Shown piece after piece: positions 1,270 through 36,879 of a stretch of DNA of 56,857 nt (its first letter is position 1; every line of letters starts with the position of its first letter). Origin of the DNA: Candidatus Wolfebacteria bacterium RIFOXYD12_FULL_48_21 (lineage in GTDB: Bacteria; Patescibacteriota; Minisyncoccia; UBA6257; UBA9933); assembly GCA_001793945.1 (NCBI GenBank), contig MGIW01000003.1, positions 1 through 56,857 of the forward strand, in the 5' to 3' direction. Under the pieces are notes generated by a model. It was not told the DNA's origin. It did no database searches and saw only the letters and a list, made by a program, of their open reading frames with translations. Position numbers and translations under genes: made by a program.

Positions 1270-2745
1270 ATCTTGCTCTTGTGGGTAAGTAAGTGTTGAC
1301 ACTATATCCCCTATCGTTAACCATAATATTGAATCAATATCGAACCCGCCTTCTTCTGCCTGATTAACCTTGCTATAATCCTCCGCTGAAACGGCTTCAA
1401 CCAAATATGTTGAAACATTGTGCGTAACATATACTCGCTTTAAGAAATATGAATAAGAGTATGGTTCTAGCGCGCTTAATATTGTAGATTTTTGTACTCC
1501 CGTCTCTTCTGTGATTTCTCGAGTAAGCGCCCCCTCAGCATCCTCGGTTTTTTTAATGCCGCCCTTAACCAATCTAAACTCGTAAATTCCGCTGTTTTTA
1601 TTTAATCTTTTCAATACGAGAAATTCGGGGTCTTGCAAGTTTTTTACGATGACAGCTTGTACATCTTTCGGGGTTTTTTGTTTTTTCAATATCGCTTTTT
1701 CATATAAGGAAATGTACGCATGCACCATCTTTTCAAAAGAAAAATTTTCGCTCACCGTCTGCGATGCATTGTTTCTCATTTTTTCACGCGCAGATTCGTC
1801 GAGATCGATAATAAACTCTAAGGTTTCAGCGATGGCACACGGAGATTTCGGCTCAATGATGAAGCCATTAATGCCGTGGGAAATTATCTCTGGGCTGCCT
1901 CCCACATTCGTAGCGACAACAAGCTTCTCCTGAGACATAGCCTCCAGTAGTGCAAGTGATTGCCCCTCAATAAGCGACGGCAAAAGCACTATATCCGCCT
2001 TTTTTAAAAACGACATCCAGCGATCATTATCAAACTCGTGAAAATATACATTCGTTGTGCTGATTTTTGACAACAGATCATTCTTAAATCTTATTTCTTC
2101 TTCAACTTTCCTTCCAGCAGGCGAACACACATGGACCTGTATCCCTGCTTTCAACAAAGGGAGTGCTTCAATGAGATATTCCAAGCCTTTTAATTTTGTG
2201 AACCGTGCCGGCACGGCGACAATCGTTTCTTCCTCATTAAAACGGTCGATGCTCTCTTCGTTCTCCGTTTCAATGGCGATGCCATTCGGTACATATTCGA
2301 TGTCGGACTCATCTCCAACGAATTCTTGAAGCACCCTCCTGTACTGGTCTGATACTGTGGCAAAGATAGTACTGTTATCTGCAATTCTTTTAATTATCGA
2401 ATTGTATTTATCACCATAAAAATCAAAGAATACACCGTGCAATGTAAAAACCAACGGTACCTTAAAGTAGGCCGCTGCCTTAATCGCAAAATCGGCCAAA
2501 TAAAAGGTATGGCAGTGAATGACATTAAAGTCGTATTGCTCAAGCTGACCAATCATATCATCCCATAATGACTCGTCCTCTTTATACGCAACCACGGTAA
2601 CGCCGGTCTCAGGCTTAAGCTCATCCGGAGTTACTACGATTAGCCCATCCTTTTTAAAATAATTGATAAGGCTTTGCACGATGCGCTCTCTCCCCCCAAG
2701 ATGGGGCAATGTCCTTGATATAATAAGCGGTTTAGCATTGATCAT
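1234..2745 (-). CDS. GT4 glycosyltransferase fused to a C-terminal Nudix hydrolase domain
   Basis: 503 aa. The N-terminal ~350 aa are GT4-like (EGQSLALLEAMSQEKLVVATNVGGSPEII). The C-terminal ~140 aa carry a Nudix box, GGIKKTEDAEGALTREITEETGV. 4-nt overlap with the upstream gene. Confidence 0.7.
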   Translation of the reverse strand: MINAKPLIISRTLPHLGGRERIVQSLINYFKKDGLIVVTPDELKPETGVTVVAYKEDESLWDDMIGQLEQYDFNVIHCHTFYLADFAIKAAAYFKVPLVFTLHGVFFDFYGDKYNSIIKRIADNSTIFATVSDQYRRVLQEFVGDESDIEYVPNGIAIETENEESIDRFNEEETIVAVPARFTKLKGLEYLIEALPLLKAGIQVHVCSPAGRKVEEEIRFKNDLLSKISTTNVYFHEFDNDRWMSFLKKADIVLLPSLIEGQSLALLEAMSQEKLVVATNVGGSPEIISHGINGFIIEPKSPCAIAETLEFIIDLDESAREKMRNNASQTVSENFSFEKMVHAYISLYEKAILKKQKTPKDVQAVIVKNLQDPEFLVLKRLNKNSGIYEFRLVKGGIKKTEDAEGALTREITEETGVQKSTILSALEPYSYSYFLKRVYVTHNVSTYLVEAVSAEDYSKVNQAEEGGFDIDSILWLTIGDIVSTLTYPQEQDLAMQAIQYLGK

Positions 2746-3506
2746 GATTTGTGTTTTTTAATAATTAATTCTGATAATTGATTGAGAAGCTCTATGGCGT
2801 TTCGGTTAAAATTGTTCAGCTTTTGCATCTCCATGTCGCCGCCCAGCTCGGACCTCAGCGGAAGTATGCTATTAAGAGTCGATCGATCTATATCCTCATA
2901 TCTTAGTTTGAACTGATCGACTATTTCCTGCTTAGTTCCGAAATAATCGCCGTCATAGATGAGAATCCAATCGATTATTTCGATAACCTTATCAACCAGC
3001 AAAGCAGCTATGTCCTTCTCCGCTTTTTTTGAATTATATCTATTGATAGATACATATTTCCGCAAAATATTAAACCGCGCATGAATAACATTGTAATACA
3101 TCAATGCTTTTCTCGCACTTTCTGCGGTGTCTTTCCCCGCTAAAATAGTTATGAATAGTTTTTGATATTCCGACTCTTCGCCAATCAAGACATTGCCCCA
3201 TGAATAATGCTCCAGATATTCAATGTCGACATATTCACGCAAATCAAACTCCGTGTGCGTTAGAAAAGAAAAAACGATTGCGTATCTGGCGCTCAAACCC
3301 AAAGCTATTTCTTTCAATGACTCAAGAGTTTTATTTGAAATATTACCGTACTGATCCGCTTTTAACAAAAATAAAAAATCGCAATCGCTATACCCTGCTA
3401 TTGCTTCATTTTCACGATAGCTCCCCAGGAGTGCTAGAAATTCAATATCGTCCAGCGCTGCATCATTGATCGAAGACCGCAAGTCCTTAATTATTTGGTC
3501 AATCAT
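2742..3506 (-). CDS. nucleotidyltransferase-fold protein (KNTase/ANT-like size and layout)
   Basis: 254 aa. Minimal NTase motif LGSYRENEAIAGYSDCDFLFLL (GS...D.D) followed by a helical C-terminal half. Tightly packed in the operon. Confidence 0.5.
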   Translation of the reverse strand: MIDQIIKDLRSSINDAALDDIEFLALLGSYRENEAIAGYSDCDFLFLLKADQYGNISNKTLESLKEIALGLSARYAIVFSFLTHTEFDLREYVDIEYLEHYSWGNVLIGEESEYQKLFITILAGKDTAESARKALMYYNVIHARFNILRKYVSINRYNSKKAEKDIAALLVDKVIEIIDWILIYDGDYFGTKQEIVDQFKLRYEDIDRSTLNSILPLRSELGGDMEMQKLNNFNRNAIELLNQLSELIIKKHKS

Positions 3507-3510
3507 AGGA

Positions 3511-3798
3511 TTAATCTATATTTTGGTCGCGCAAAGCTTTCCCGATAATATTATTAATATCGATATCAAATAAAATGGATAATGCCAATATATCGTCAAA
3601 AATATCCGCCAACCCATTTTCGATATCATTTAAATCTTTGGGTGGCTTTTTCTTATTGGTATATTGCAAATATACTTCTGAAAGCTCACCCACTTCTTCC
3701 ATTAGATGAAATAGTCTCTGGTCTTTGCCCCAAACAAATTCCGCTTTCTCTAATTTACCGGCATACTTCTTGATTTCATTTTGAGATATGTATTCCAT
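3511..3798 (-). CDS. MazG-like nucleotide pyrophosphohydrolase
   Basis: Start taken at internal MEYISQNE. HLMEEVGELSEVY and GLADIFDDILALS match the paired EExxE/D helices of MazG-type all-alpha NTP pyrophosphatases. Confidence 0.55.
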   Translation of the reverse strand: MEYISQNEIKKYAGKLEKAEFVWGKDQRLFHLMEEVGELSEVYLQYTNKKKPPKDLNDIENGLADIFDDILALSILFDIDINNIIGKALRDQNID

Positions 3799-11422: not shown

Positions 11423-12541
11423 ATGCAAAATTCTACACTCCCTGTTCTGCCCCAAGCCGTCATGCCTACTATTAAGGTCGTGTCGAGCACATGCAATCTT
11501 CGCTGCCACTATTGCTATTACAATGCATTAGACCAATCCCGCCCGAATCCAATGAGCACTAAGACTGTCACGAATTTGATCAAAAAAACGATTGAGTTTG
11601 TGCAAGACGACTATGTTCACTTCACATGGCACGGCGGAGAGCCTCTCTTGGCCGGAATGAATTTTTATGAACATATCCTCCGTATCCAAGAGCTGTACGG
11701 CAAGAAGAAAACAATCATCAACGGCATCCAAACCAATGCGACTCTTGTCAGTGACCGGTGGGCGAGCTTCTTCAAGAAACACGATTTCCGTGTTGGGGTA
11801 AGTATTGACGGCCCACCTATGATCCAAAATGCGCATCGAGTACTACCGTCACAAGGAGGAAGTTCTCGATTAGTACAACAAGGATTGCGTGCGCTCCAGC
11901 GCCATGACATCTACCCGCCAGCGATAGCGGTCGTTACCCGAGAATCCCTCGGCAATGCTCGGAAGATCTTCCAGTATTTCCTAAGGAACCATGTCCGTAG
12001 CATACACATCAAAGAATGCTACGAGATAGATCCTTCAACAGGGAGGCCCACTGCGCTTTCTGTTATGCCGGATGAATTCACTGCTTTCCTGATCGAAATA
12101 TTTGACATGTGGTTCGATCTGGATGACCCAAGTATTTCCATCAGAAATCTCGAGCAATTAGTTCGTGGCCTCGTCGGCGGTGAGCCATCCCTCTGCGAAG
12201 CCACGGGTAAATGCTGGCTCTTCCCCGTTGTTGAAGCAGATGGAACAGTTGGCGCATGCGATAGCTTCCCTATCCGTGACTATCACTTCGGCAACATAAA
12301 TGAAATGAGTTGGGGCGATCTCTTTGCAAGTGCCGGCAATATTCGATTCTCTGAGAATATCCGGCAAAATGAAGATAGGTGTCGCTCGTGCGAATGGTTT
12401 TCCATATGCCACGGGTGCTGCTTGCGTCATGCGCATTCCCCCGTTACTCACGAGTGGCACCATAATCTTTTCTGTACATCAAAAAAGCGCCTATTCGGCC
12501 ACATCAAGGCACGCATAGACGCAATTCATGCAGGGGGCTAG
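11423..12541 (+). CDS. radical SAM/SPASM maturase, anSME-like (A)
   Basis: CNLRCHYC (CX3CX2C), FTWHGGEPLL, GIQTNATLV, VGVSIDGP. C-terminal SPASM cysteines: CEATGKC...GACDSF...CRSCEWFSICHGCC. Confidence 0.8.
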   Translation: MQNSTLPVLPQAVMPTIKVVSSTCNLRCHYCYYNALDQSRPNPMSTKTVTNLIKKTIEFVQDDYVHFTWHGGEPLLAGMNFYEHILRIQELYGKKKTIINGIQTNATLVSDRWASFFKKHDFRVGVSIDGPPMIQNAHRVLPSQGGSSRLVQQGLRALQRHDIYPPAIAVVTRESLGNARKIFQYFLRNHVRSIHIKECYEIDPSTGRPTALSVMPDEFTAFLIEIFDMWFDLDDPSISIRNLEQLVRGLVGGEPSLCEATGKCWLFPVVEADGTVGACDSFPIRDYHFGNINEMSWGDLFASAGNIRFSENIRQNEDRCRSCEWFSICHGCCLRHAHSPVTHEWHHNLFCTSKKRLFGHIKARIDAIHAGG

Positions 12542-17747: not shown

Positions 17748-18665
17748 ATGAAGCGGTACCTCCAACAAATCGAAACACTGAAGAACATATTTACTCCCCT
17801 TCAAGGAGAGCATTTCGAGCCGGCAACGGATGGCACCCATTATAAGGTTTTTCTTTCGCATAACTATGTCATCCGGTTCAGAGACGACAACCCAGACCTT
17901 TTGCTACGAGAGGTCGACTTATTAAAACACCTCGAACATCCTTTGATACCAAATGTGCTTTGGGTTGGCAATGTCAATGAATCAATCACTATGGTTGAAA
18001 ATCGCCTCCTTGGGCAAACCGTAAACAAGGTTTGGAAAACTCTTCCGGAAATAAGCAAGGCGACGATCATCGAGGATGTTGTCGGGTTTTTACATTATCT
18101 CAGGACACAACCAGAGCACTCCTACTACTCGATCAATACCGGTAAAACATACACCTCTTATTTGGATTATCTCACTGCCGATGTCGAACAGAAGGTTGCA
18201 ACGATACAAAAATTCGAGCAAGCTAAAGGCCTGTTGCAGGATCTATTGTCGATTATCAAAGAGCCAAAAAACAGTAATTTATTTTCTAACGGAAAGACCG
18301 CACTCATTCACGGAGATCTTATTATTCATAATCTCCTCACTGACGGTGATAAACTAACTGGAGTCCTCGACTGGGAACTGGCGTTGTTCGGCGATCCAGA
18401 TCATGACCTCTTCCGCCTTTTTTATTATCTGGAATGCGCAAAGGCCTACCAAGAGCAAGACACTGACGAATCATTTGAGGCCGATTATATGGACGCATTG
18501 ATCGCGGCAATCAAACGATCTGACATTATAGAAAATGAGCCACTTTTTCAGAAGAAATATAAATTCGTGCGGGCCATCTTTTACCTCAACGCGCTCAACT
18601 GGGCGTCAAATTCAAATAATCCGGAAAAAAATATTGCCGAACTTGTAAATCAGTGGGGTAAATGA
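17748..18665 (+). CDS. APH/choline-kinase-family phosphotransferase (second copy of the family)
   Basis: 305 aa. LIHGDLIIHNLLTDGDKLTGVLDWELALFGDPDHD catalytic region. Confidence 0.75.
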   Translation: MKRYLQQIETLKNIFTPLQGEHFEPATDGTHYKVFLSHNYVIRFRDDNPDLLLREVDLLKHLEHPLIPNVLWVGNVNESITMVENRLLGQTVNKVWKTLPEISKATIIEDVVGFLHYLRTQPEHSYYSINTGKTYTSYLDYLTADVEQKVATIQKFEQAKGLLQDLLSIIKEPKNSNLFSNGKTALIHGDLIIHNLLTDGDKLTGVLDWELALFGDPDHDLFRLFYYLECAKAYQEQDTDESFEADYMDALIAAIKRSDIIENEPLFQKKYKFVRAIFYLNALNWASNSNNPEKNIAELVNQWGK

Positions 18666-18722
18666 TATTTCGCTCCGAACCTTTCTTGATTACATAGCAA
18701 TTCGAACTTGCGCAATAAAAAT

Positions 18723-18750
18723 GGGGTTAGGCGCCGAAACGCCTAACCCC
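18723..18750 (-). terminator. rho-independent terminator after precursor B
   Basis: GGGGTTAGGCG-TTTCGG-CGCCTAACCCC followed by ATTTTTATT on the minus strand. Confidence 0.75.
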
Positions 18751-18763
18751 AACCGGGCTGCTG

Positions 18764-18859
18764 TCATTTGCAGCCCGTTCTCTTGCCGCCAGACAGATTT
18801 CCCGAAGCCATCGGGGAAACCTCGGTAATTTCAATCTTTTTGATCTCGATCTTTTTCAT
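18764..18859 (-). CDS. 31-aa candidate RiPP precursor (B), not in the ORF track
   Basis: AGGAGGTG followed by three ATGs. The third has ~8-nt spacing. Product: MKKIEIKKIEITEVSPMASGNLSGGKRTGCK. Lies 38 nt after the rSAM stop, with a terminator directly after. Confidence 0.55.
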   Translation of the reverse strand: MKKIEIKKIEITEVSPMASGNLSGGKRTGCK

Positions 18860-18897
18860 CATCATCACCTCCTTCATAGTATGTGATCGATTGTTAC

Positions 18898-20310
18898 CTA
18901 CCTTCCGCTTGAATGGATGTACTCAACAGCAAGCGCTTCCGTAACCGCGCGATAAAAATCGCATAGGTCAGCGAAGAGTCTTTGCCGCCTTTCTCCATCC
19001 GAACGCGCAACGATCTCCCTTGTCACATGACATTGGCCTCCACATGACCCTTCTATTGCGCATCCGGAACAGTAATCGTCAGTCCCAGGAAAGCGACTCT
19101 TGACCAACCCAAGCAGACCGCCTACTACCTCGAATGTTCGTTCAAAGGTATCAATGTGTCCGATCTGTGTAGTCGTATGACCACAGACTTTAATACTGCC
19201 GTCGACATTGAACTCAAGAGTCTTCCCTTCGACGGCAGCACAGAATGCGTGGTTTTCCGTCAACAGACTCCTACTGGTCAAGTTGCGAAAGGCGCTATCC
19301 CATGTACCAAAAAAATCGATGCCTTTATTATTGGCATATTTTTTCAGATGCATAAGCTTCGCTACCCTCTTGGTTACGGGAATATCAACCAAGCCTACAA
19401 GGTCGTAGTCAAACGCTATGGATGTCATACCTCGCTGAGCTGCCAGATCAATCACATCGGTATCGATGAGCTCGAAATTGCCGCCTGTTACCGTGATACT
19501 GAATCCGTCCAGCGGATACCCGATATCAGCCAAGAGATCAAATTTTTCCACGATCCTATTGAATGTACCCGCACCCCCTTTGGAAATACGGATTGCGTCA
19601 TTGGCCTGCGCAGTTCCATCAAGCGAGGTTGCTATGCGCACATGGTACTTCTTAAGCACCTCCGCAATCTCCCTCGTCATAAGCGTAAGATTGGTATTGA
19701 TGGCAAACTCAAAGGTCAAATCGCTCATGCCCTCGCAATACCGAAGGACCTTTTCGATTACCGGCCAGTTAATCAGCGGTTCGGCGTTGCCGAAATGCAT
19801 CTTACCGTGCCTGTTCCCGTATTTTTTCATCAGGCCTGCATACTGGTCGATACACTTCTTGGCCGTCTCCCAGCTCATATTGAGCTGCTTTCGATCCGGA
19901 AGTATACCGACATTACTATCAATAGACGACTGAAAGTGGATACAGTGCGTGCACGCAAAGTTACATGAATCGCTGATCGCAAGCCCCATACGATCAACAG
20001 TCCGCCCACTACTCACTTCCACCAAATGGCTTGCCATCTGGTGGCGCAAAAATTCTTTCTCGTCGAACCCGGGTTCGACGAGAAAGAAGACTTCTGCGAA
20101 CGCGCGAATTGTTTCTCTTGGATCTCCATCGCAAATTTGAGCGATTTCTTCTTTAGAGATAGGCCGCCTAAAGAGATTCAGAAATCGCAAACCCTCATCG
20201 TTAATAATGCGGGGGTTGCCATATAAGGCATGATATGCCATTGCAGACCCCGGCTCCGATCCCGTTACGATGCGGATATTCGGTGACAATTGATATTGTC
20301 GCTTTTCCAT
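18898..20310 (-). CDS. radical SAM/SPASM peptide maturase with N-terminal PqqD/RRE-like domain (B)
   Basis: Start at MEKRQYQ (GAGGAGAGG RBS). The N-terminal ~100 aa look RRE-like (EGLRFLNLFRRPISKEEIAQI). CNFACTHC (CX3CX2C). SPASM cysteines: CAAVEG...VCGH...CSGCAIEGSCGGQC. Confidence 0.75.
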   Translation of the reverse strand: MEKRQYQLSPNIRIVTGSEPGSAMAYHALYGNPRIINDEGLRFLNLFRRPISKEEIAQICDGDPRETIRAFAEVFFLVEPGFDEKEFLRHQMASHLVEVSSGRTVDRMGLAISDSCNFACTHCIHFQSSIDSNVGILPDRKQLNMSWETAKKCIDQYAGLMKKYGNRHGKMHFGNAEPLINWPVIEKVLRYCEGMSDLTFEFAINTNLTLMTREIAEVLKKYHVRIATSLDGTAQANDAIRISKGGAGTFNRIVEKFDLLADIGYPLDGFSITVTGGNFELIDTDVIDLAAQRGMTSIAFDYDLVGLVDIPVTKRVAKLMHLKKYANNKGIDFFGTWDSAFRNLTSRSLLTENHAFCAAVEGKTLEFNVDGSIKVCGHTTTQIGHIDTFERTFEVVGGLLGLVKSRFPGTDDYCSGCAIEGSCGGQCHVTREIVARSDGERRQRLFADLCDFYRAVTEALAVEYIHSSGR

Positions 20311-20359
20311 TGCAACCTCTCCTCTTATTCGGTTAGTAAAGGGCTTCAAAACTGCCAAT

Positions 20360-20388
20360 AGAATACCACTGGTGCATATATGTGTCAA
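20360..20388 (-). promoter_or_regulatory. sigma70-type promoter for rSAM B
   Basis: TTGACA (20383-20388), 17 nt, TATTCT (20360-20365) on the minus strand. Confidence 0.5.
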
Positions 20389-20413
20389 ATTGGTATTAAT
20401 CTTATTGCAAAAA

Positions 20414-20433
20414 AGAGGCGCCTGCGCGCCTCT
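20414..20433 (-). terminator. rho-independent terminator after the response regulators
   Basis: AGAGGCGC-GCAG-GCGCCTCT then TTTTTTGC on the minus strand. Confidence 0.7.
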
Positions 20434-20440
20434 TTTGTTT

Positions 20441-20833
20441 TTACCCTTTCATTAACGCTTGCCGGATCTTTTTTACCACTTCTTCGAGGTCGGTGCCTTT
20501 TTCCATAAAATCTACTGCGCCGAGCTCTTTTGCGAGTGCGTCCCTGTCTTTGAACACGGGCCATGGATTGCTCATGCTCGTGAAAAATATTACCTTTACA
20601 TTTTTCATCTCCGGTATATCGCGTAACTCGATAAGATACTCCGTGCCATTCATGCCGGGCATGTTTATGTCGAGCAAAAGCAGGTCCGGTTTATATGTTT
20701 TTACCGTCTCCAATGCAACCTCCGGGTCGTTGACGGTTTTAATGTCAAAGCCCTCGGCTTGCAATTTCATCGATATGATCGACGATAGATCGAGGTCGTC
20801 GTCTACCATCATGATCCTCGGGGTGGTACTCAT
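20441..20833 (-). CDS. single-domain response regulator (CheY-like receiver)
   Basis: 130 aa. IMMVDDD, LLLLDINMPGMNG (phospho-acceptor Asp), conserved T/K region. No output domain. Confidence 0.85.
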   Translation of the reverse strand: MSTTPRIMMVDDDLDLSSIISMKLQAEGFDIKTVNDPEVALETVKTYKPDLLLLDINMPGMNGTEYLIELRDIPEMKNVKVIFFTSMSNPWPVFKDRDALAKELGAVDFMEKGTDLEEVVKKIRQALMKG

Positions 20834-20845
20834 ATAATGATTATA

Positions 20846-21247
20846 TCACATTCCTGCTTCGGGAGCCGCAATAAGCTCCCTCACCTGTTTTATTAGCTGG
20901 TCAAGATCGACCGCCTTATCGATAAATGCTACTGCTCCCAACTCACTTGCAACACTCTGAAGGTCGCCGCCGCCTTTCCATGGATTGATCATCGACGAGA
21001 AAAATGCGACCTTGATCGCCTTTGCATCGGGATTTTCTTTCAGCTCATTGATGAATTCTATTCCGCTCATGCCCGGCATGTTGATATCGAGCAATACCAG
21101 ATCCGGGTGGATCTCTTCGATCATCCGCAGGCCCATCTGCGGCATATCCGCCACATGCACCGCGAACCCTTCGCTTTCCAGTTTTGTCTTGATGATCGAA
21201 TCGAATTCCCGATCTTCATCCACCAATACCACTAAGTTATGTTCCAT
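20846..21247 (-). CDS. single-domain response regulator (CheY-like receiver)
   Basis: 133 aa. VVLVDED, LVLLDINMPGMSG. No output domain. Confidence 0.85.
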   Translation of the reverse strand: MEHNLVVLVDEDREFDSIIKTKLESEGFAVHVADMPQMGLRMIEEIHPDLVLLDINMPGMSGIEFINELKENPDAKAIKVAFFSSMINPWKGGGDLQSVASELGAVAFIDKAVDLDQLIKQVRELIAAPEAGM

Positions 21248-21253
21248 TGTTTA

Positions 21254-22120
21254 TCAGATTCCGTTAAATAATTTCAATCTCTCCGCAACCTTCTTTTTTA
21301 CCGCTTCGATCGGGTCAAGCAACAGCTTGTACGGCGTTACTTCGTCCGGCTTTTCGCTGAGCGCCCGCTCCATACCCTGCCGCCATGCCAACCGTATTTC
21401 CGTATTGATGTGCACGATCGCAATGCCGTTTTGTATCGCGGCAATAAAGTCTTCGTCGCGAATGCCCGAACCGCCATGCAATACCATCGGCACGCCCGCC
21501 GCAACGCGCAGTTCCGCAATGCGCTCGATGAACAGATTCGGGTTTGGCGCGTCTTTGAACATGCCGTGGATGTTGCCGACCGCGGGCGCCAACAGGTCTA
21601 TGCCCGTTTCCTGCACGAACCGCTTCGCTTCTTCGGGCTTGGTCAGGTCTTCGAGTTTGATCGCCGCTCCTTCTGGCACTTCCTTTAGTATGGTCGAGCT
21701 TGTTCCCAAATATCCCAGCTCCGCTTCCACCAGCACTTCAGGGCGGGTCTTCTTTACCCACTCGACCACTTCCTTTGTTTTTGCGATGTTTTCTTCGAAC
21801 GGCAATTTGCCCGCGTCGAACAGCACCGCGTCAAAGCCCGCATTGACCGCTTCTTGTATCTTTTCCAACGAATGCGTATGGTCGGCATTTATGAATATCG
21901 GGTAGCCATATTGCTCGCGGAGATTACGGACCATGTCGGCGGCGTTTTTTGTGCCGACAAAATCACGCTCCCCTTCGGAAAGGCCGATGATTATCGGCAG
22001 GTTAAGCTCCTTTGCCGCTTCAAAAATACCTTTCAGACCTGCGAGATCGGAAATGTTGAAATGCCCGATGGCAACCTTGCGAAGTTTCGCATCTTCTATG
22101 TATTCACGCAGTGTTTTCAT
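21254..22120 (-). CDS. fba: class II fructose-bisphosphate aldolase
   Basis: 288 aa. AIGHFNISD, FINADHTHS, VLHGGSG and HINTE motifs. Confidence 0.85.
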   Translation of the reverse strand: MKTLREYIEDAKLRKVAIGHFNISDLAGLKGIFEAAKELNLPIIIGLSEGERDFVGTKNAADMVRNLREQYGYPIFINADHTHSLEKIQEAVNAGFDAVLFDAGKLPFEENIAKTKEVVEWVKKTRPEVLVEAELGYLGTSSTILKEVPEGAAIKLEDLTKPEEAKRFVQETGIDLLAPAVGNIHGMFKDAPNPNLFIERIAELRVAAGVPMVLHGGSGIRDEDFIAAIQNGIAIVHINTEIRLAWRQGMERALSEKPDEVTPYKLLLDPIEAVKKKVAERLKLFNGI

Positions 22121-23618: not shown

Positions 23619-24722
23619 TTACATAAGACCGTACGATCTTATTTTTGTTGAAATATGTTCAAAATATCTTTTTCTATTTTTACAAGCGTCATCCAATGGC
23701 TCGATAGAATCAAGCCGCTCATACCCATCACTTGCGCATCCTCCTTTGCATATAAAATGCCAATTACAATTATGGCAATAGCTCCTCCTTTTCCTTATCG
23801 TTTCCTGAAATATCCGCAAATTCGAATTTGATCTAACGATAGCCGGTTCGTCCAGTATACTGCCAAAATATACCGCGTCTGTTTTGGAAAAAGAATCACA
23901 TCCATAAATCGATCCGTCTGAATAGATAGTGGCAAATCGACCACATTGCCCCGTGTAAATACATTCGCGTTTATTCCCACCAAGCATCAGATCAACAACG
24001 CTTTGAATATCGCGAATCTCGACTTCCTGATCATCCGCCTCCAGCCAAAGATCAAATATGGCAATCATAAAATCCGTGTATTGCGTAGGCGAAATTGCCA
24101 GCGACGACACATCCCCACAATCACCAGTATCTTTCACTCTGGCAAATTTCAACTTCTTCATGCCTTTCTCAAGAAAAAAGTTAAAAATTTCTCTTGGGAA
24201 TTCATGGTTTATAGCGCTGATGCCACAAATAACCCCATTGAATATCCCTTCGTTACGCAACAAATTGATTCCCTCCATAACATCATCGTATGATCCTTTT
24301 TTATCGGAATATCGCCGAACTTGATCATGAAATTCCTTTGGCCCGTCAAGACTCACTCCGACAAGAAAGTTATTTCCCGCGAATAATCTGATCCATTCCG
24401 TAGTAAGTAGTGTGGCATTGGTCTGGATAAAATTCTCTATTCTTTTCCCTTTCTGCCTCCATACATACTGCAATTCTACCGCTTTTTGATAAAAGCATAA
24501 TCCTGCAAGCAACGGCTCTCCTCCATGCCAAATAAATTCAACATCATCTTGATCGTGGCAGAAAAAATCTATTACAGCTTTTAATATCTCGGGCTGCATA
24601 CGATTTTTTACATTACAATCCCTCAGTCCAGAAACATAGCAGTATGAACAGGACAAATTACATAATGCATCAACCGGCTTTATAATCGGTACTGAAATCA
24701 ACTGATGGGACATGTTAACCAC
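23619..24722 (-). CDS. radical SAM/SPASM maturase, anSME-like (C)
   Basis: CNLSCSYC (CX3CX2C), FIWHGGEPLLAG, FIQTNATLL, VGVSLDGP. SPASM cysteines: CIYTGQC...GCDSF...CHNCNWHFICKGGC. Confidence 0.8.
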   Translation of the reverse strand: MVNMSHQLISVPIIKPVDALCNLSCSYCYVSGLRDCNVKNRMQPEILKAVIDFFCHDQDDVEFIWHGGEPLLAGLCFYQKAVELQYVWRQKGKRIENFIQTNATLLTTEWIRLFAGNNFLVGVSLDGPKEFHDQVRRYSDKKGSYDDVMEGINLLRNEGIFNGVICGISAINHEFPREIFNFFLEKGMKKLKFARVKDTGDCGDVSSLAISPTQYTDFMIAIFDLWLEADDQEVEIRDIQSVVDLMLGGNKRECIYTGQCGRFATIYSDGSIYGCDSFSKTDAVYFGSILDEPAIVRSNSNLRIFQETIRKRRSYCHNCNWHFICKGGCASDGYERLDSIEPLDDACKNRKRYFEHISTKIRSYGLM

Positions 24723-36508: not shown

Positions 36509-36847
36509 GGGGATGGCAGGCTTAGACATCAGAAGTTCATTGATAAACTGCAGACCGGGCGCTATCCCGCAACATGGCAAAAAACAAGAACTGCCAACAA
36601 AACAGCAGTCCCTGCATTCGCTTTCGCGTAATGCGGTGTCGCCTCACCTGAAGCTTGTACGGTGAACGCGGCATAAACCCTCAAGCTGGTTCAGAATCCG
36701 TGCCGTAGGCTTCTGAACGAGAACCAAATCGGCAAACTCACGGGTGATTCGTCGGATTTTCTGCCTGTGTTTTACACCAACCCGACTATGTCTGTAGATG
36801 TTTTTCAATACCTCTTTTGGACGGGAGTTCAATTCTCCTCATCTCCA
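36509..36847 (+). ncRNA. ssrA: tmRNA
   Basis: 5' GGGGATG pairs with 3' CATCTCC, followed by discriminator A. T-arm GGACGGGAGTTCAATTCTCC. Internal tag frame GCC AAC AAA ACA GCA GTC CCT GCA TTC GCT TTC GCG TAA = ANKTAVPAFAFA. Adjacent to smpB. CCA is not encoded. Confidence 0.9.
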
Positions 36848-36879
36848 CAACCACATTCACACGCTAACCAAAAACTGAT

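What the first reader, a model, noticed from the sequence alone, without database searches (positions are those of the whole stretch)
18723..20388. Third, distinct RiPP-like unit: RRE-containing radical SAM/SPASM enzyme plus a 31-aa peptide ending in GCK
The rSAM at 18898-20310 has a ~100-aa N-terminal PqqD/RRE-like region, a CX3CX2C motif and a full SPASM cysteine set. It has its own TTGACA-17-TATTCT promoter.

The unannotated ORF MKKIEIKKIEITEVSPMASGNLSGGKRTGCK starts 38 nt after the rSAM stop. Its RBS is AGGAGGTG, and three consecutive ATGs follow. A perfect 11-bp-stem terminator comes immediately after the ORF.

The peptide has a repeated KKIEI leader-like segment, a Gly-rich hinge and a single Cys two residues from the end. 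This hints at a thioether (sacti- or ranthipeptide-type) or a C-terminal modification. It is unrelated in sequence to peptides A and C.
Basis: partly seen in the sequence, partly recalled or inferred. Interest (0 to 1): 0.7.

Follow-up and report, generated by a model that had tools for sequence, protein, structure and literature searches.

The report
Conserved radical-SAM peptide-maturation unit with kinase
This is a real, previously undescribed small-peptide modification system: a radical SAM enzyme, its 31-residue substrate peptide and a partner kinase. It is conserved across ultra-small groundwater bacteria (Patescibacteria), with relatives in cyanobacteria and in an ANME-1 archaeon, but its chemistry and product are still unknown.

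Summary
On the minus strand lie a promoter (20388-20360), a 470-aa radical SAM/SPASM gene (20310-18898), an RBS, a 31-aa ORF (18859-18764) ending GKRTGCK, and a terminator (18751-18722).

- **Enzyme.** It has an N-terminal RRE, a CX3CX2C motif and seven SPASM cysteines. Its closest solved relative over the full length is TigE (8VPO), a cyclopropylglycine synthase. TigE's diagnostic GYW is G[T/S]W here, so it is not a member of that family. No NCBIfam model reaches its cutoff.
- **Peptide.** It is a real gene. All 37 related loci with enough flank carry an adjacent peptide with one Cys near the C-terminus. Codon variability is 0.20/0.15/0.49, and the RBS and terminator are conserved. Patescibacteria have ...GKRTxCK. 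Cyanobacterial and ANME-1 loci have ...R[AV]TCQRR[SN], encoded upstream. Two Patescibacteria-group loci have ...GKDA[ST]C.
The convergent APH-family kinase (17748-18665) co-occurs with the pair. In other subfamilies an MFS exporter or GNAT acetyltransferases with an ABC exporter take its place.

Best reading: a RiPP precursor-maturase pair making a small cationic, Cys-crosslinked peptide, with the kinase acting in immunity or tailoring. The chemistry is inferred, not shown. It is a new member of a known kind.

The parts
20360..20388 (-). Sigma-70-like promoter TTGACA-17(TG)-TATTCT of the rSAM-peptide operon
   Evidence: 10 of 12 matches, TG extension. It lies directly downstream of the previous gene's terminator (20411-20436). 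A consensus match only; not shown experimentally.
18898..20310 (-). RRE-radical SAM-SPASM peptide maturase, 470 aa
   Evidence: Pfam PF04055. No NCBIfam model above cutoff. TigE 8VPO is the closest solved structure (E 4.5e-59; TM 0.82/0.86).
20056..20310 (-). N-terminal RiPP recognition element (residues about 1-85): four strands (5-8, 12-16, 22-27, 31-37) then three helices (38-45, 53-59, 65-73)
   Evidence: AF2 secondary structure. Aligned to the TigE RRE, residues 3-85 (PMC10878394).
19942..19965 (-). CX3CX2C radical SAM cluster motif CNFACTHC (C116, C120, C123)
   Evidence: invariant in all relatives.
19300..19308 (-). G335-T336-W337, the family's counterpart of the GYW motif of cyclopropyl synthases
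   Evidence: G and W are invariant. T occurs in 56 of 57 sequences. S occurs in the short-peptide CPR group.
18913..19257 (-). SPASM domain with seven invariant Cys (C357, C376, C414, C417, C423, C427, C450)
18874..18897 (-). Decayed remnant of the enzyme's C-terminal tail. In frame after the TAG stop it reads VTIDHIL-TGA, where most close homologues encode ...AVGNRQTCTL-TGA
18866..18873 (-). Ribosome-binding site AGGAGGTG of the peptide gene
   Evidence: GGAGGTG is conserved in most of the 16 loci shown, with variants such as GGAGGTA and GGGGGTG, and is degenerate in L015.
18764..18859 (-). Precursor peptide gene, 31 aa: MKKIEIKKIEITEVSPMASGNLSGGKRTGCK. Two further in-frame ATGs lie at 18862 and 18865.
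18767..18787 (-). Conserved C-terminal core motif G25-K26-R27-T28-G29-C30-K31
   Evidence: R27, C30 and K31 invariant; G25, K26 and T28 at 90% or more across 24 peptides.
18722..18751 (-). Intrinsic terminator (13-pair stem, 4-nt loop, T-run), in the gap between the convergent peptide and kinase genes
   Evidence: An equivalent hairpin follows the peptide gene in the 16 related loci shown.
17748..18665 (+). Convergent APH-family phosphotransferase (305 aa; HGDLIIHN catalytic loop and DWE motif), co-conserved with the pair

Best explanation
The locus is a self-contained RiPP (ribosomally synthesised, post-translationally modified peptide) unit.

**Transcription.** One transcript, from the promoter at 20388 to the terminator at 18722, encodes the maturase and then its 31-aa precursor.

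**Recognition (inferred).** The amphipathic N-terminal part of the peptide (K-I-x-I-K-K-I-x-I...) is bound as a beta-strand by the enzyme's N-terminal RRE.

**Chemistry (inferred).**
1. The radical SAM cluster cleaves SAM to a 5'-deoxyadenosyl radical.
2. The radical abstracts a hydrogen within the C-terminal core GKRTGCK.
3. The invariant Cys30 is crosslinked to a nearby residue. The proposed mechanism is binding of Cys30 to the fourth iron site of auxiliary cluster I, which no cysteine occupies, as in CteB.
4. My preferred acceptor is the residue three positions upstream of the Cys. That position is Arg in the Patescibacteria peptides with the GKRTxCK motif and in the cyanobacterial and ANME-1 peptides, and Asp in the third subfamily. 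Thr28 is the alternative.
5. The product would be a small, strongly cationic thioether ring.

**Kinase (inferred from gene-neighbourhood substitution).** The co-conserved APH-type kinase handles the product. It either gives self-protection or pro-drug formation by phosphorylating the Thr hydroxyl, or it tailors the peptide. In sister subfamilies an MFS exporter, or GNAT acetyltransferases with an ABC exporter, occupy the same genomic position.

**Shown here:** gene anatomy, domain architecture, conservation and co-occurrence.

**Inferred:** leader binding, the site and type of crosslink, and the kinase's role.
For: - **Anatomy.**
- **Enzyme class.** Pfam rSAM. Many RiPP-maturase NCBIfam models hit weakly. 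Full-length homology and fold match to TigE, then CteB. The RRE is defined crystallographically in TigE (PMC10878394).
- **Peptide is a real, co-evolving gene.** 37 of 37 evaluable loci carry one. Codon-position variability is 0.20/0.15/0.49, and the RBS and terminator are conserved.
- **Core motif.** R27, C30 and K31 are invariant, and the single Cys is retained in all three peptide subfamilies. The residue at -3 from Cys is R or D in all of them, while Thr/Ser shifts between -1 and -2.
- **Auxiliary cluster I.** Seven SPASM Cys, not eight. The Tyr that fills the fourth Aux I site in TigE is Thr/Ser here. This leaves room for a substrate thiolate, as described for CteB (own knowledge: Grove et al. 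2017, PDB 5WGG).
- **Kinase linkage.** It is syntenic in L001-L013, L015 and L017 at 46-64% identity, while upstream genes vary. The kinase family (199 hits) is about the size of the rSAM family (181 hits). All three kinase homologues sampled from their own side sit next to a 31-aa ORF plus rSAM.
- **Positional replacement.** MFS in L026, L028, L029, L031, L034, L087, L024 and L025. GNATs in L019 and L020, with an ABC exporter in L019.
- **Kinase relatives.** The closest solved structures are antibiotic-resistance kinases.
Against: - No biochemical or transcript evidence exists. Three metatranscriptome runs from the same study showed nothing.
- The nearest characterised enzyme makes C-C bonds (cyclopropylglycine), not thioethers. 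Scores to the ranthipeptide and sactipeptide models are far below cutoff (PapB 87 vs 340; SCIFF 71 vs 425).
- An Arg-Cys thioether has no precedent known to me.
- Thr is nearly as conserved as Arg, and either could be the reactive partner.
- No leader protease is encoded nearby.
- The kinase is convergent, not co-transcribed. Its link rests on synteny alone.
- Kinase, acetyltransferase and exporter could each be a tailoring or export function rather than immunity.
Confidence: 0.55

Rival explanations
1. The enzyme is a TigE/TvgB-type cyclopropyl synthase. It would convert Ile/Val residues of the repeated KKIEI-KKIEI segment into (methyl)cyclopropylglycine. The C-terminal motif would serve only for recognition or a later step.
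For: TigE is by far the closest characterised relative (E 4.5e-59, TM 0.82-0.86). Known substrates of that family have short repeats containing a conserved Val or Ile (PMC10878394, PMC9062424). The window peptide has a KKIEI duplication, and relatives have KKIKIKKIKI.
Against: The GYW motif is reported as strictly conserved and its Tyr as required for TigE activity (PMC10878394). It is G[T/S]W in every member examined. The repeat is absent from the 20-aa peptides and from the cyanobacterial and ANME-1 peptides. The C-terminal R..C motif is retained everywhere.
Confidence: 0.08
2. The kinase starts a lanthionine-like route. It phosphorylates Thr28, phosphate elimination gives dehydrobutyrine, and Cys30 adds to it. 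The radical SAM enzyme would perform a different modification, such as epimerisation or a C-C or C-N crosslink on Lys/Arg.
For: APH-family kinases phosphorylate Thr for dehydration in thioamitide and lanthidin pathways. Those precursors also carry conserved Thr and Cys near the C-terminus (bioRxiv 10.1101/2020.12.17.423248). Thr and Cys are both conserved here, and the kinase is co-conserved.
Against: None of the window genes tested on either side, including those beyond the kinase, gave a HopA1-like lyase or LanC-like cyclase hit, and they are not syntenic. The Thr/Ser and Cys are equally conserved in subfamilies that have no kinase within 4 kb. The Thr therefore matters independently of the kinase.
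Confidence: 0.15
3. The peptide is the precursor of an intracellular redox cofactor or other housekeeping molecule, in the manner of PQQ or mycofactocin, rather than an exported bioactive peptide.
For: The modified motif sits at the extreme C-terminus, as in MftA and PqqA (own knowledge). The pair is widely retained in the very small Patescibacteria genomes. No protease or transporter is adjacent in this window.
Against: The mycofactocin rSAM model scores 38.6 bits against a cutoff of 265. No partner dehydrogenases are conserved. In sister subfamilies the neighbouring gene is an MFS or ABC exporter, which points to an exported product.
Confidence: 0.07
4. The small ORF is a chance reading frame, or only a translated spacer, and the rSAM acts on something else.
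For: The ORF is not called in the public protein collection for this genome. There is no transcript evidence.
Against: 37 of 37 loci carry a homologous peptide. Third-codon-position variation is 2.4 to 3.2 times that of the first and second positions. The RBS, terminator and C-terminal motif are conserved down to 34% enzyme identity.
Confidence: 0.02

Closest known systems
TigE / TvgB radical SAM cyclopropylglycine synthases (PDB 8VPO)
   Same: Same three-domain architecture (RRE, rSAM barrel, seven-Cys SPASM). Alignable end to end (E 4.5e-59; TM 0.82/0.86). Each acts with a small adjacent precursor.
   Different: About 20% identity in the structural alignment. The diagnostic GYW (Tyr ligand of Aux I) is G[T/S]W. 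The conserved part of the precursor is a single C-terminal R-x-x-C motif, not a Val/Ile repeat. The partner genes differ (kinase, MFS or GNAT here; dioxygenase and transporters in the tvg cluster).
CteB/SCIFF and PapB ranthipeptide maturases, and sactipeptide synthases
   Same: RRE-rSAM-SPASM enzymes that crosslink a substrate Cys. CteB is the second-best structural match (TM 0.63). PapB is the best NCBIfam hit. The 3-Cys Aux I arrangement is compatible with binding of a substrate thiolate.
   Different: Scores lie far below the family cutoffs (87 vs 340; 71 vs 425). The precursor has one Cys rather than six or several. No CxxxD or SCIFF pattern is present.
NxxC-type beta-thioether RaS-RiPPs (NxxcB; recalled from memory, not tested here)
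   Same: A single Cys with the proposed partner residue three positions upstream, in a short core (N-x-x-C there; R-x-x-C or D-x-x-C here).
   Different: The partner residue, the taxa and the leader all differ.
APH-type kinases of thioamitide and lanthidin pathways (TsaC, LxmK), and antibiotic-resistance APHs
   Same: Pfam PF01636 fold with intact HGDxxxxN and D-x-E motifs. Encoded next to a RiPP precursor that has conserved Thr and Cys.
   Different: No HopA1-type lyase partner was found. The nearest solved relatives are hygromycin and gentamicin kinases at weak E-values (5e-8). The gene is convergent to the biosynthetic operon. In sister loci it is replaced by exporters or acetyltransferases.

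Membership tests
RRE-dependent radical SAM/SPASM RiPP maturase with cognate precursor (generic class) | CX3CX2C radical SAM cluster motif | tested here: met
   CNFACTHC at residues 116-123, invariant in relatives.
RRE-dependent radical SAM/SPASM RiPP maturase with cognate precursor (generic class) | C-terminal SPASM domain with the seven-Cys set including CX2CX5CX3C | tested here: met
   C357, C376, C414, C417, C423, C427 and C450 are invariant and align to TigE's ligands.
RRE-dependent radical SAM/SPASM RiPP maturase with cognate precursor (generic class) | N-terminal winged-helix RRE domain | tested here: met
   AF2 strands and helices at residues 5-73 with pLDDT around 90. Aligned to the TigE RRE, residues 3-85 (PMC10878394). 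The Pfam PqqD model itself did not hit.
RRE-dependent radical SAM/SPASM RiPP maturase with cognate precursor (generic class) | Adjacent, co-conserved short precursor gene | tested here: met
   37 of 37 loci; coding signature.
RRE-dependent radical SAM/SPASM RiPP maturase with cognate precursor (generic class) | Enzyme modifies the peptide | not testable with these tools
   Needs co-expression or in vitro reconstitution with mass spectrometry.
TigE/TvgB cyclopropyl synthases | Strictly conserved GYW motif whose Tyr ligates Aux I | tested here: not met
   The aligned position is G-T-W (56 of 57 sequences), or G-S-W in the short-peptide group.
TigE/TvgB cyclopropyl synthases | Precursor with a repeated core motif containing a conserved Val/Ile | tested here: inconclusive
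   KKI(E/K)I is duplicated in the 31-aa peptides. It is absent from the 20-aa, cyanobacterial and ANME-1 peptides. The conserved motif is C-terminal.
Ranthipeptide (PapB, SCIFF/CteB) maturases | Score above the NCBIfam equivalog cutoff | tested here: not met
   PapB 87.1 vs 340; SCIFF 71.4 vs 425.
Ranthipeptide (PapB, SCIFF/CteB) maturases | Cys-rich core (six Cys in about 45 residues, or repeated CxxxD) | tested here: not met
   One Cys per peptide, rarely two.
Ranthipeptide or sactipeptide (chemistry) | Cys sulfur-to-carbon thioether in the product | not testable with these tools
   Inferred only, from the invariant Cys and the 3-Cys Aux I site.
Thioamitide/lanthidin-type kinase-lyase dehydration | APH-family kinase encoded with the precursor | tested here: met
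   PF01636 at 5e-16. Syntenic in 15 loci and in 3 of 3 kinase-side samples.
Thioamitide/lanthidin-type kinase-lyase dehydration | HopA1-like lyase partner | tested here: not met
   The ten window ORFs tested around the unit, including those flanking the kinase, gave no HopA1 hit, and they are not syntenic with the pair. Only the immediate neighbourhood was examined.
Mycofactocin/PQQ-type peptide-derived cofactor | Match to the MftC or PqqE equivalog model | tested here: not met
   Mycofactocin rSAM scores 38.6 vs 265. PqqE is not among the best 25 hits shown.

The most novel reading that the evidence does not exclude
The G[T/S]W branch of TigE-like enzymes installs a crosslink not yet described, for example a Cys-Arg (R-x-x-C) thioether, in a 7-residue cationic core. 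Patescibacteria would then make a miniature cationic peptide toxin. A dedicated APH-type kinase would phosphorylate it for self-immunity or pro-drug export. This is the same logic as aminoglycoside and tuberactinomycin producers, with acetyltransferase or efflux variants in sister lineages. In most close homologues the enzyme's own C-terminal tail (...NRQTCTL) would act as a substrate-mimicking pseudosubstrate.
Probability: 0.2. Interest if true: 0.8.

Novelty: new member of a known kind. Interest (0 to 1): 0.6.

Why it matters
Patescibacteria (Candidate Phyla Radiation) have roughly 1-Mb genomes and are usually described as having little biosynthetic capacity. Here a peptide-modification unit is retained across several of their lineages: relatives are labelled Kuenen-, Falkow-, Buchanan- and Taylorbacteria, Saccharibacteria, Peribacteria and Absconditabacterales. 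Relatives also occur in cyanobacteria and in an ANME-1 archaeon. If the product is a cationic toxin or signal, it could bear on how these episymbionts deal with hosts and competitors.

For enzymology, the family is a close but distinct sister of the cyclopropylglycine synthases. A single residue at the auxiliary cluster differs (Tyr to Thr/Ser). That makes it a natural test of how this position steers radical SAM/SPASM chemistry.

The swap of kinase, acetyltransferase and exporter at one genomic position gives a testable hypothesis about self-protection.

Tried and rejected
- **NCBIfam and Pfam on the peptide:** no hit.
- **Rfam on the window and seven loci:** run to explain conserved DNA downstream of the peptide. 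Only a tmRNA and tRNAs were found. The conserved DNA is the convergent kinase gene.
- **Tail docking:** AF2 on a tail-bearing homologue (P0029) tested whether the ...NRQTCTL tail docks on the RRE, as TigE's tail does. The tail has pLDDT around 30, so there is no prediction either way.
- **RNA-level cause for tail conservation:** I considered an anti-SD CACCT pairing with the peptide's RBS. Synonymous changes (ACC, ACT, ACA) break the pairing while C-T-L is kept, so I rejected it.
- **Tail as the true substrate:** rejected. The tail has been lost repeatedly, including in this window, while the separate peptide is always present.
- **Transcript evidence:** three metatranscriptome runs from the same study hold nothing from this locus.
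- **Literature:** searches for the motif strings and for Patescibacteria/CPR radical SAM RiPPs found no description of this family.
- **PADLOC:** only weak viperin-type rSAM similarity, so this is not a known defence system.
- **Metagenome scan:** it added only seven true relatives.
Full report
**1. The observation**

All the features sit on the minus strand.
- A 470-aa ORF runs 20310..18898. It starts MEKRQYQL and contains CNFACTHC.
- After its TAG stop come 38 nt that include AGGAGGTG (18873..18866) and three consecutive ATGs (18865, 18862, 18859).
- From the third ATG a 31-codon ORF encodes MKKIEIKKIEITEVSPMASGNLSGGKRTGCK, with its stop at 18766..18764.
- A hairpin with a 13-pair stem and a T-run follows at 18751..18722.
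- A TTGACA-17-TATTCT site with a TG extension lies at 20388..20360. It sits just downstream of the previous gene's terminator.
- The promoter scan as a whole is not enriched over shuffled sequence. The promoter call therefore rests on its position only.
- Groundwater metagenome contigs reproduce the sequence without differences.

**2. The enzyme**

- Pfam finds only the Radical_SAM domain.
- NCBIfam lists 52 radical SAM families, mostly peptide maturases, but none near its cutoff. The best is PapB at 87 bits against a cutoff of 340.
- A profile of 57 homologues matches TigE (PDB 8VPO) from residue 3 to 464 with E 4.5e-59. CteB (5WGG) follows at 3.5e-22.
- An AlphaFold2 model has mean pLDDT 91.6 and pTM 0.90. 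It superposes on TigE with TM 0.82/0.86 over 470 columns and on CteB with TM 0.63/0.67.
- The TigE paper defines an N-terminal RRE (residues 3-85), the rSAM barrel and a SPASM domain with two auxiliary clusters (PMC10878394).
- The model here shows strands at 5-8, 12-16, 22-27 and 31-37, then helices at 38-45, 53-59 and 65-73.
- Seven SPASM cysteines are invariant and align with TigE's ligands.

**3. Not a cyclopropyl synthase by that family's own test**

- The TigE family is defined by a strictly conserved GYW motif. Its Tyr ligates auxiliary cluster I and is required for activity (PMC10878394).
- The aligned residues here are G335-T336-W337. Thr occurs in 56 of 57 sequences. Ser occurs in the more distant Patescibacteria members.
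- An exhaustive search of 1.84 billion representatives found 345 clusters at E of 1e-30 or better. They form a continuum down to TigE-level scores.
- Among the best 150, the middle residue is F (28), T (26), Y (24), S (10) and others.
- The window's enzyme therefore belongs to one branch of a largely uncharacterised TigE-like radiation.

**4. The peptide is a real, co-evolving gene**

- The enzyme has 181 homologues at E of 1e-10 or better. The best reaches 75% identity. Those that carry names are mostly from Patescibacteria.
- I fetched loci from species-representative genomes, from metagenomes and from the kinase side.
- Of the 39 rSAM-side loci from the genome and metagenome scans, 37 have enough flank, and all 37 carry an adjacent peptide with a matching C-terminal motif.
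- Three peptide types appear:

| Type | Found in | Position | C-terminal motif | Length |
|---|---|---|---|---|
| 1 | Patescibacteria | 3-75 nt (mostly 15-16) downstream of the rSAM stop | ...G[KR]R[TM]xCK | 31 aa, or 20 aa in the Saccharibacteria, Peribacteria and Absconditabacterales loci and some unclassified MAGs |
| 2 | Cyanobacteria, an ANME-1 archaeon, metagenome locus L085 | upstream | ...R[AV]TCQRR[SN] | variable |
| 3 | L019 and L020 (a Patescibacteria-group MAG and a MAG labelled uncultured Gammaproteobacteria) | downstream | ...KKGKDA[ST]C(T/AY) | variable |

- Among thirteen 96-nt type-1 genes, mean pairwise differences by codon position are 0.20/0.15/0.49. GGAGGTG and a terminator hairpin are conserved around them.
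- Across 24 peptides, R27, C30 and K31 are invariant. G25, K26 and T28 are conserved at 90% or more.
- Relative to the Cys, position -3 is Arg in types 1 and 2 and Asp in type 3. The hydroxyl residue shifts between -1 and -2.
- The N-terminal parts share an alternating basic/hydrophobic pattern that suits beta-strand pairing with an RRE. That is an inference.
- The window's KKIEI duplication and its 'SGNLSGG' stretch are not general features.
- The window's peptide is not in the public protein collection.

**5.

- The convergent gene at 17748..18665 is an APH-family phosphotransferase. Pfam PF01636 scores 5e-16, and the HGDLIIHN and DWE motifs are intact.
- It is syntenic with the pair in L001-L013, L015 and L017 at 46-64% identity. 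Genes upstream of the rSAM are not conserved.
- Its family (199 hits) is about as large as the rSAM family. Many hits share contig lengths with rSAM hits.
All three lie convergent to a short (31- or 36-aa) ORF plus the rSAM.
- The nearest solved structures are hygromycin B and gentamicin kinases, at weak E-values.

**6. What sits in the kinase's place elsewhere**

- In the 20-aa type-1 loci (L026, L028, L029, L031, L034, L087) a convergent MFS transporter occupies that position.
- In type-3 loci, one or two GNAT acetyltransferases follow the peptide, plus an ABC exporter in L019.
- In the cyanobacterial loci L024 and L025, an MFS/BT1 transporter starts 5-7 nt after the rSAM stop.
- Phosphorylation, acetylation and efflux are the classic self-protection routes against cationic antibiotics (general knowledge).
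- The simplest reading is that the product is exported and potentially harmful to the producer. The kinase would then serve immunity or pro-drug formation.
- A tailoring role cannot be excluded. APH-type kinases phosphorylate Thr in thioamitide and lanthidin precursors, there together with a HopA1-like lyase (bioRxiv 10.1101/2020.12.17.423248).
- No such lyase was found among the window's neighbouring genes.

**7. Mechanism**

The steps below are inferred, not shown.
1. The RRE binds the leader.
2. The 5'-deoxyadenosyl radical abstracts a hydrogen in the core.
3. The single invariant Cys forms a crosslink. With only three Cys ligands on Aux I, and Thr/Ser where TigE has Tyr, the Cys could bind the cluster as in CteB (own knowledge).
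4. The fixed -3 spacing of Arg or Asp makes that residue my preferred partner. This parallels N-x-x-C thioethers and Cys-Asp ranthipeptide links (own knowledge). Thr is the alternative.

Confidence by level:
- About 0.9 that this is a true precursor-maturase pair.
- About 0.6 that the modification centres on the C-terminal Cys motif.
- About 0.3 for the specific -3 thioether.

**8. Unexplained: the enzyme's tail**

- Sixty-three of the 120 closest homologues end in a 12-14-residue tail...SNGxxxVGNRQTCTL. It ends in [RHK]-x-x-C-x-hydrophobic.
- The tail mimics the R-x-T-C core of the cyanobacterial peptides.
- It occurs only in the kinase-type clade.
- In the window it has decayed. An in-frame TAG is followed by VTIDHIL-TGA directly before the RBS.
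- In the TigE crystal the enzyme's own tail lies in the RRE groove (PMC10878394).
- AF2 gives no confident placement of the tail here.
- It may be a pseudosubstrate or an autoregulatory element. That remains open.

**9. Verdict**

- It is an uncharacterised family within a well-known class, so I rate it a new member of a known kind.
- Three features raise its interest: wide retention in Patescibacteria, the Tyr-to-Thr/Ser switch relative to cyclopropyl synthases, and the kinase/acetyltransferase/exporter substitution.
- No literature describing it was found.

Noticed in passing
window 18874-18897; homologues P0001-P0120; L001-L013: Most close homologues of the enzyme carry a conserved C-terminal tail, ...SNGxxxVGNRQTCTL (63 of 120 end in [RHK]xxCx[LIVFSP]). 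The tail resembles the R-x-T-C core of the cyanobacterial precursors. The window holds only a decayed remnant after an in-frame TAG. Its function is unknown.
   Followed up: partly
window 20053-20088: A perfect 36-nt palindrome (TTCTTTCTCGTCGAACCCGGGTTCGACGAGAAAGAA) lies inside the rSAM coding sequence and encodes FFLVEPGFDEKE. Ten homologous loci checked keep the amino acids but match only 9-12 of 18 palindrome positions. Logan contigs break exactly here. That may explain a truncated 326-aa call of this gene in the protein collection (P0038).
   Followed up: partly
window 23619-24722 (-) and 11423-12541 (+): Two further CX3CX2C radical SAM genes. The first scores highest against the anaerobic sulfatase maturase and DynA models (275 and 260 bits, both below cutoff).
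   Followed up: no
L017 4001-5471; L165/L166 4077-5547: In some relatives the rSAM gene is split in the variable loop after the CX3CX2C motif. The pieces are about 149 aa (RRE plus cluster loop) and about 326 aa. One such form (P0109) is recorded on 11 contigs. It is unclear whether this is a pseudogene or a two-piece enzyme.
   Followed up: no
L161/L162 889-2361: In one groundwater Patescibacteria contig the kinase is flanked on its other side by a second radical SAM gene (432 aa) with its own 51-aa ORF.
   Followed up: no
L022-L024 about 2240-3612 (-): Several cyanobacterial loci (L022, L024, probably L023) have a divergently oriented STAND/NB-ARC NTPase gene upstream of the precursor. L024 and L025 have an MFS/BT1 transporter immediately after the rSAM.
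   Followed up: partly
window 20441-20833 and 20846-21247 (-): Two tandem stand-alone response-regulator receiver proteins lie directly upstream of the unit, preceded by a class II fructose-bisphosphate aldolase (21254-22120). They are not syntenic with the rSAM in other genomes.
   Followed up: no
window 36509-36850 (+): A tmRNA gene with tag peptide ANKTAVPAFAFA.
   Followed up: no
P0286, P0290, P0296, P0302, P0312, P0327 (representative search): Several relatives of 1118-1164 aa carry the RRE-rSAM-SPASM module at the C-terminus of a much larger protein. At the GxW position they have GM[VI], GL[AM] or GGM, without the Trp. The N-terminal parts were not examined.
   Followed up: no
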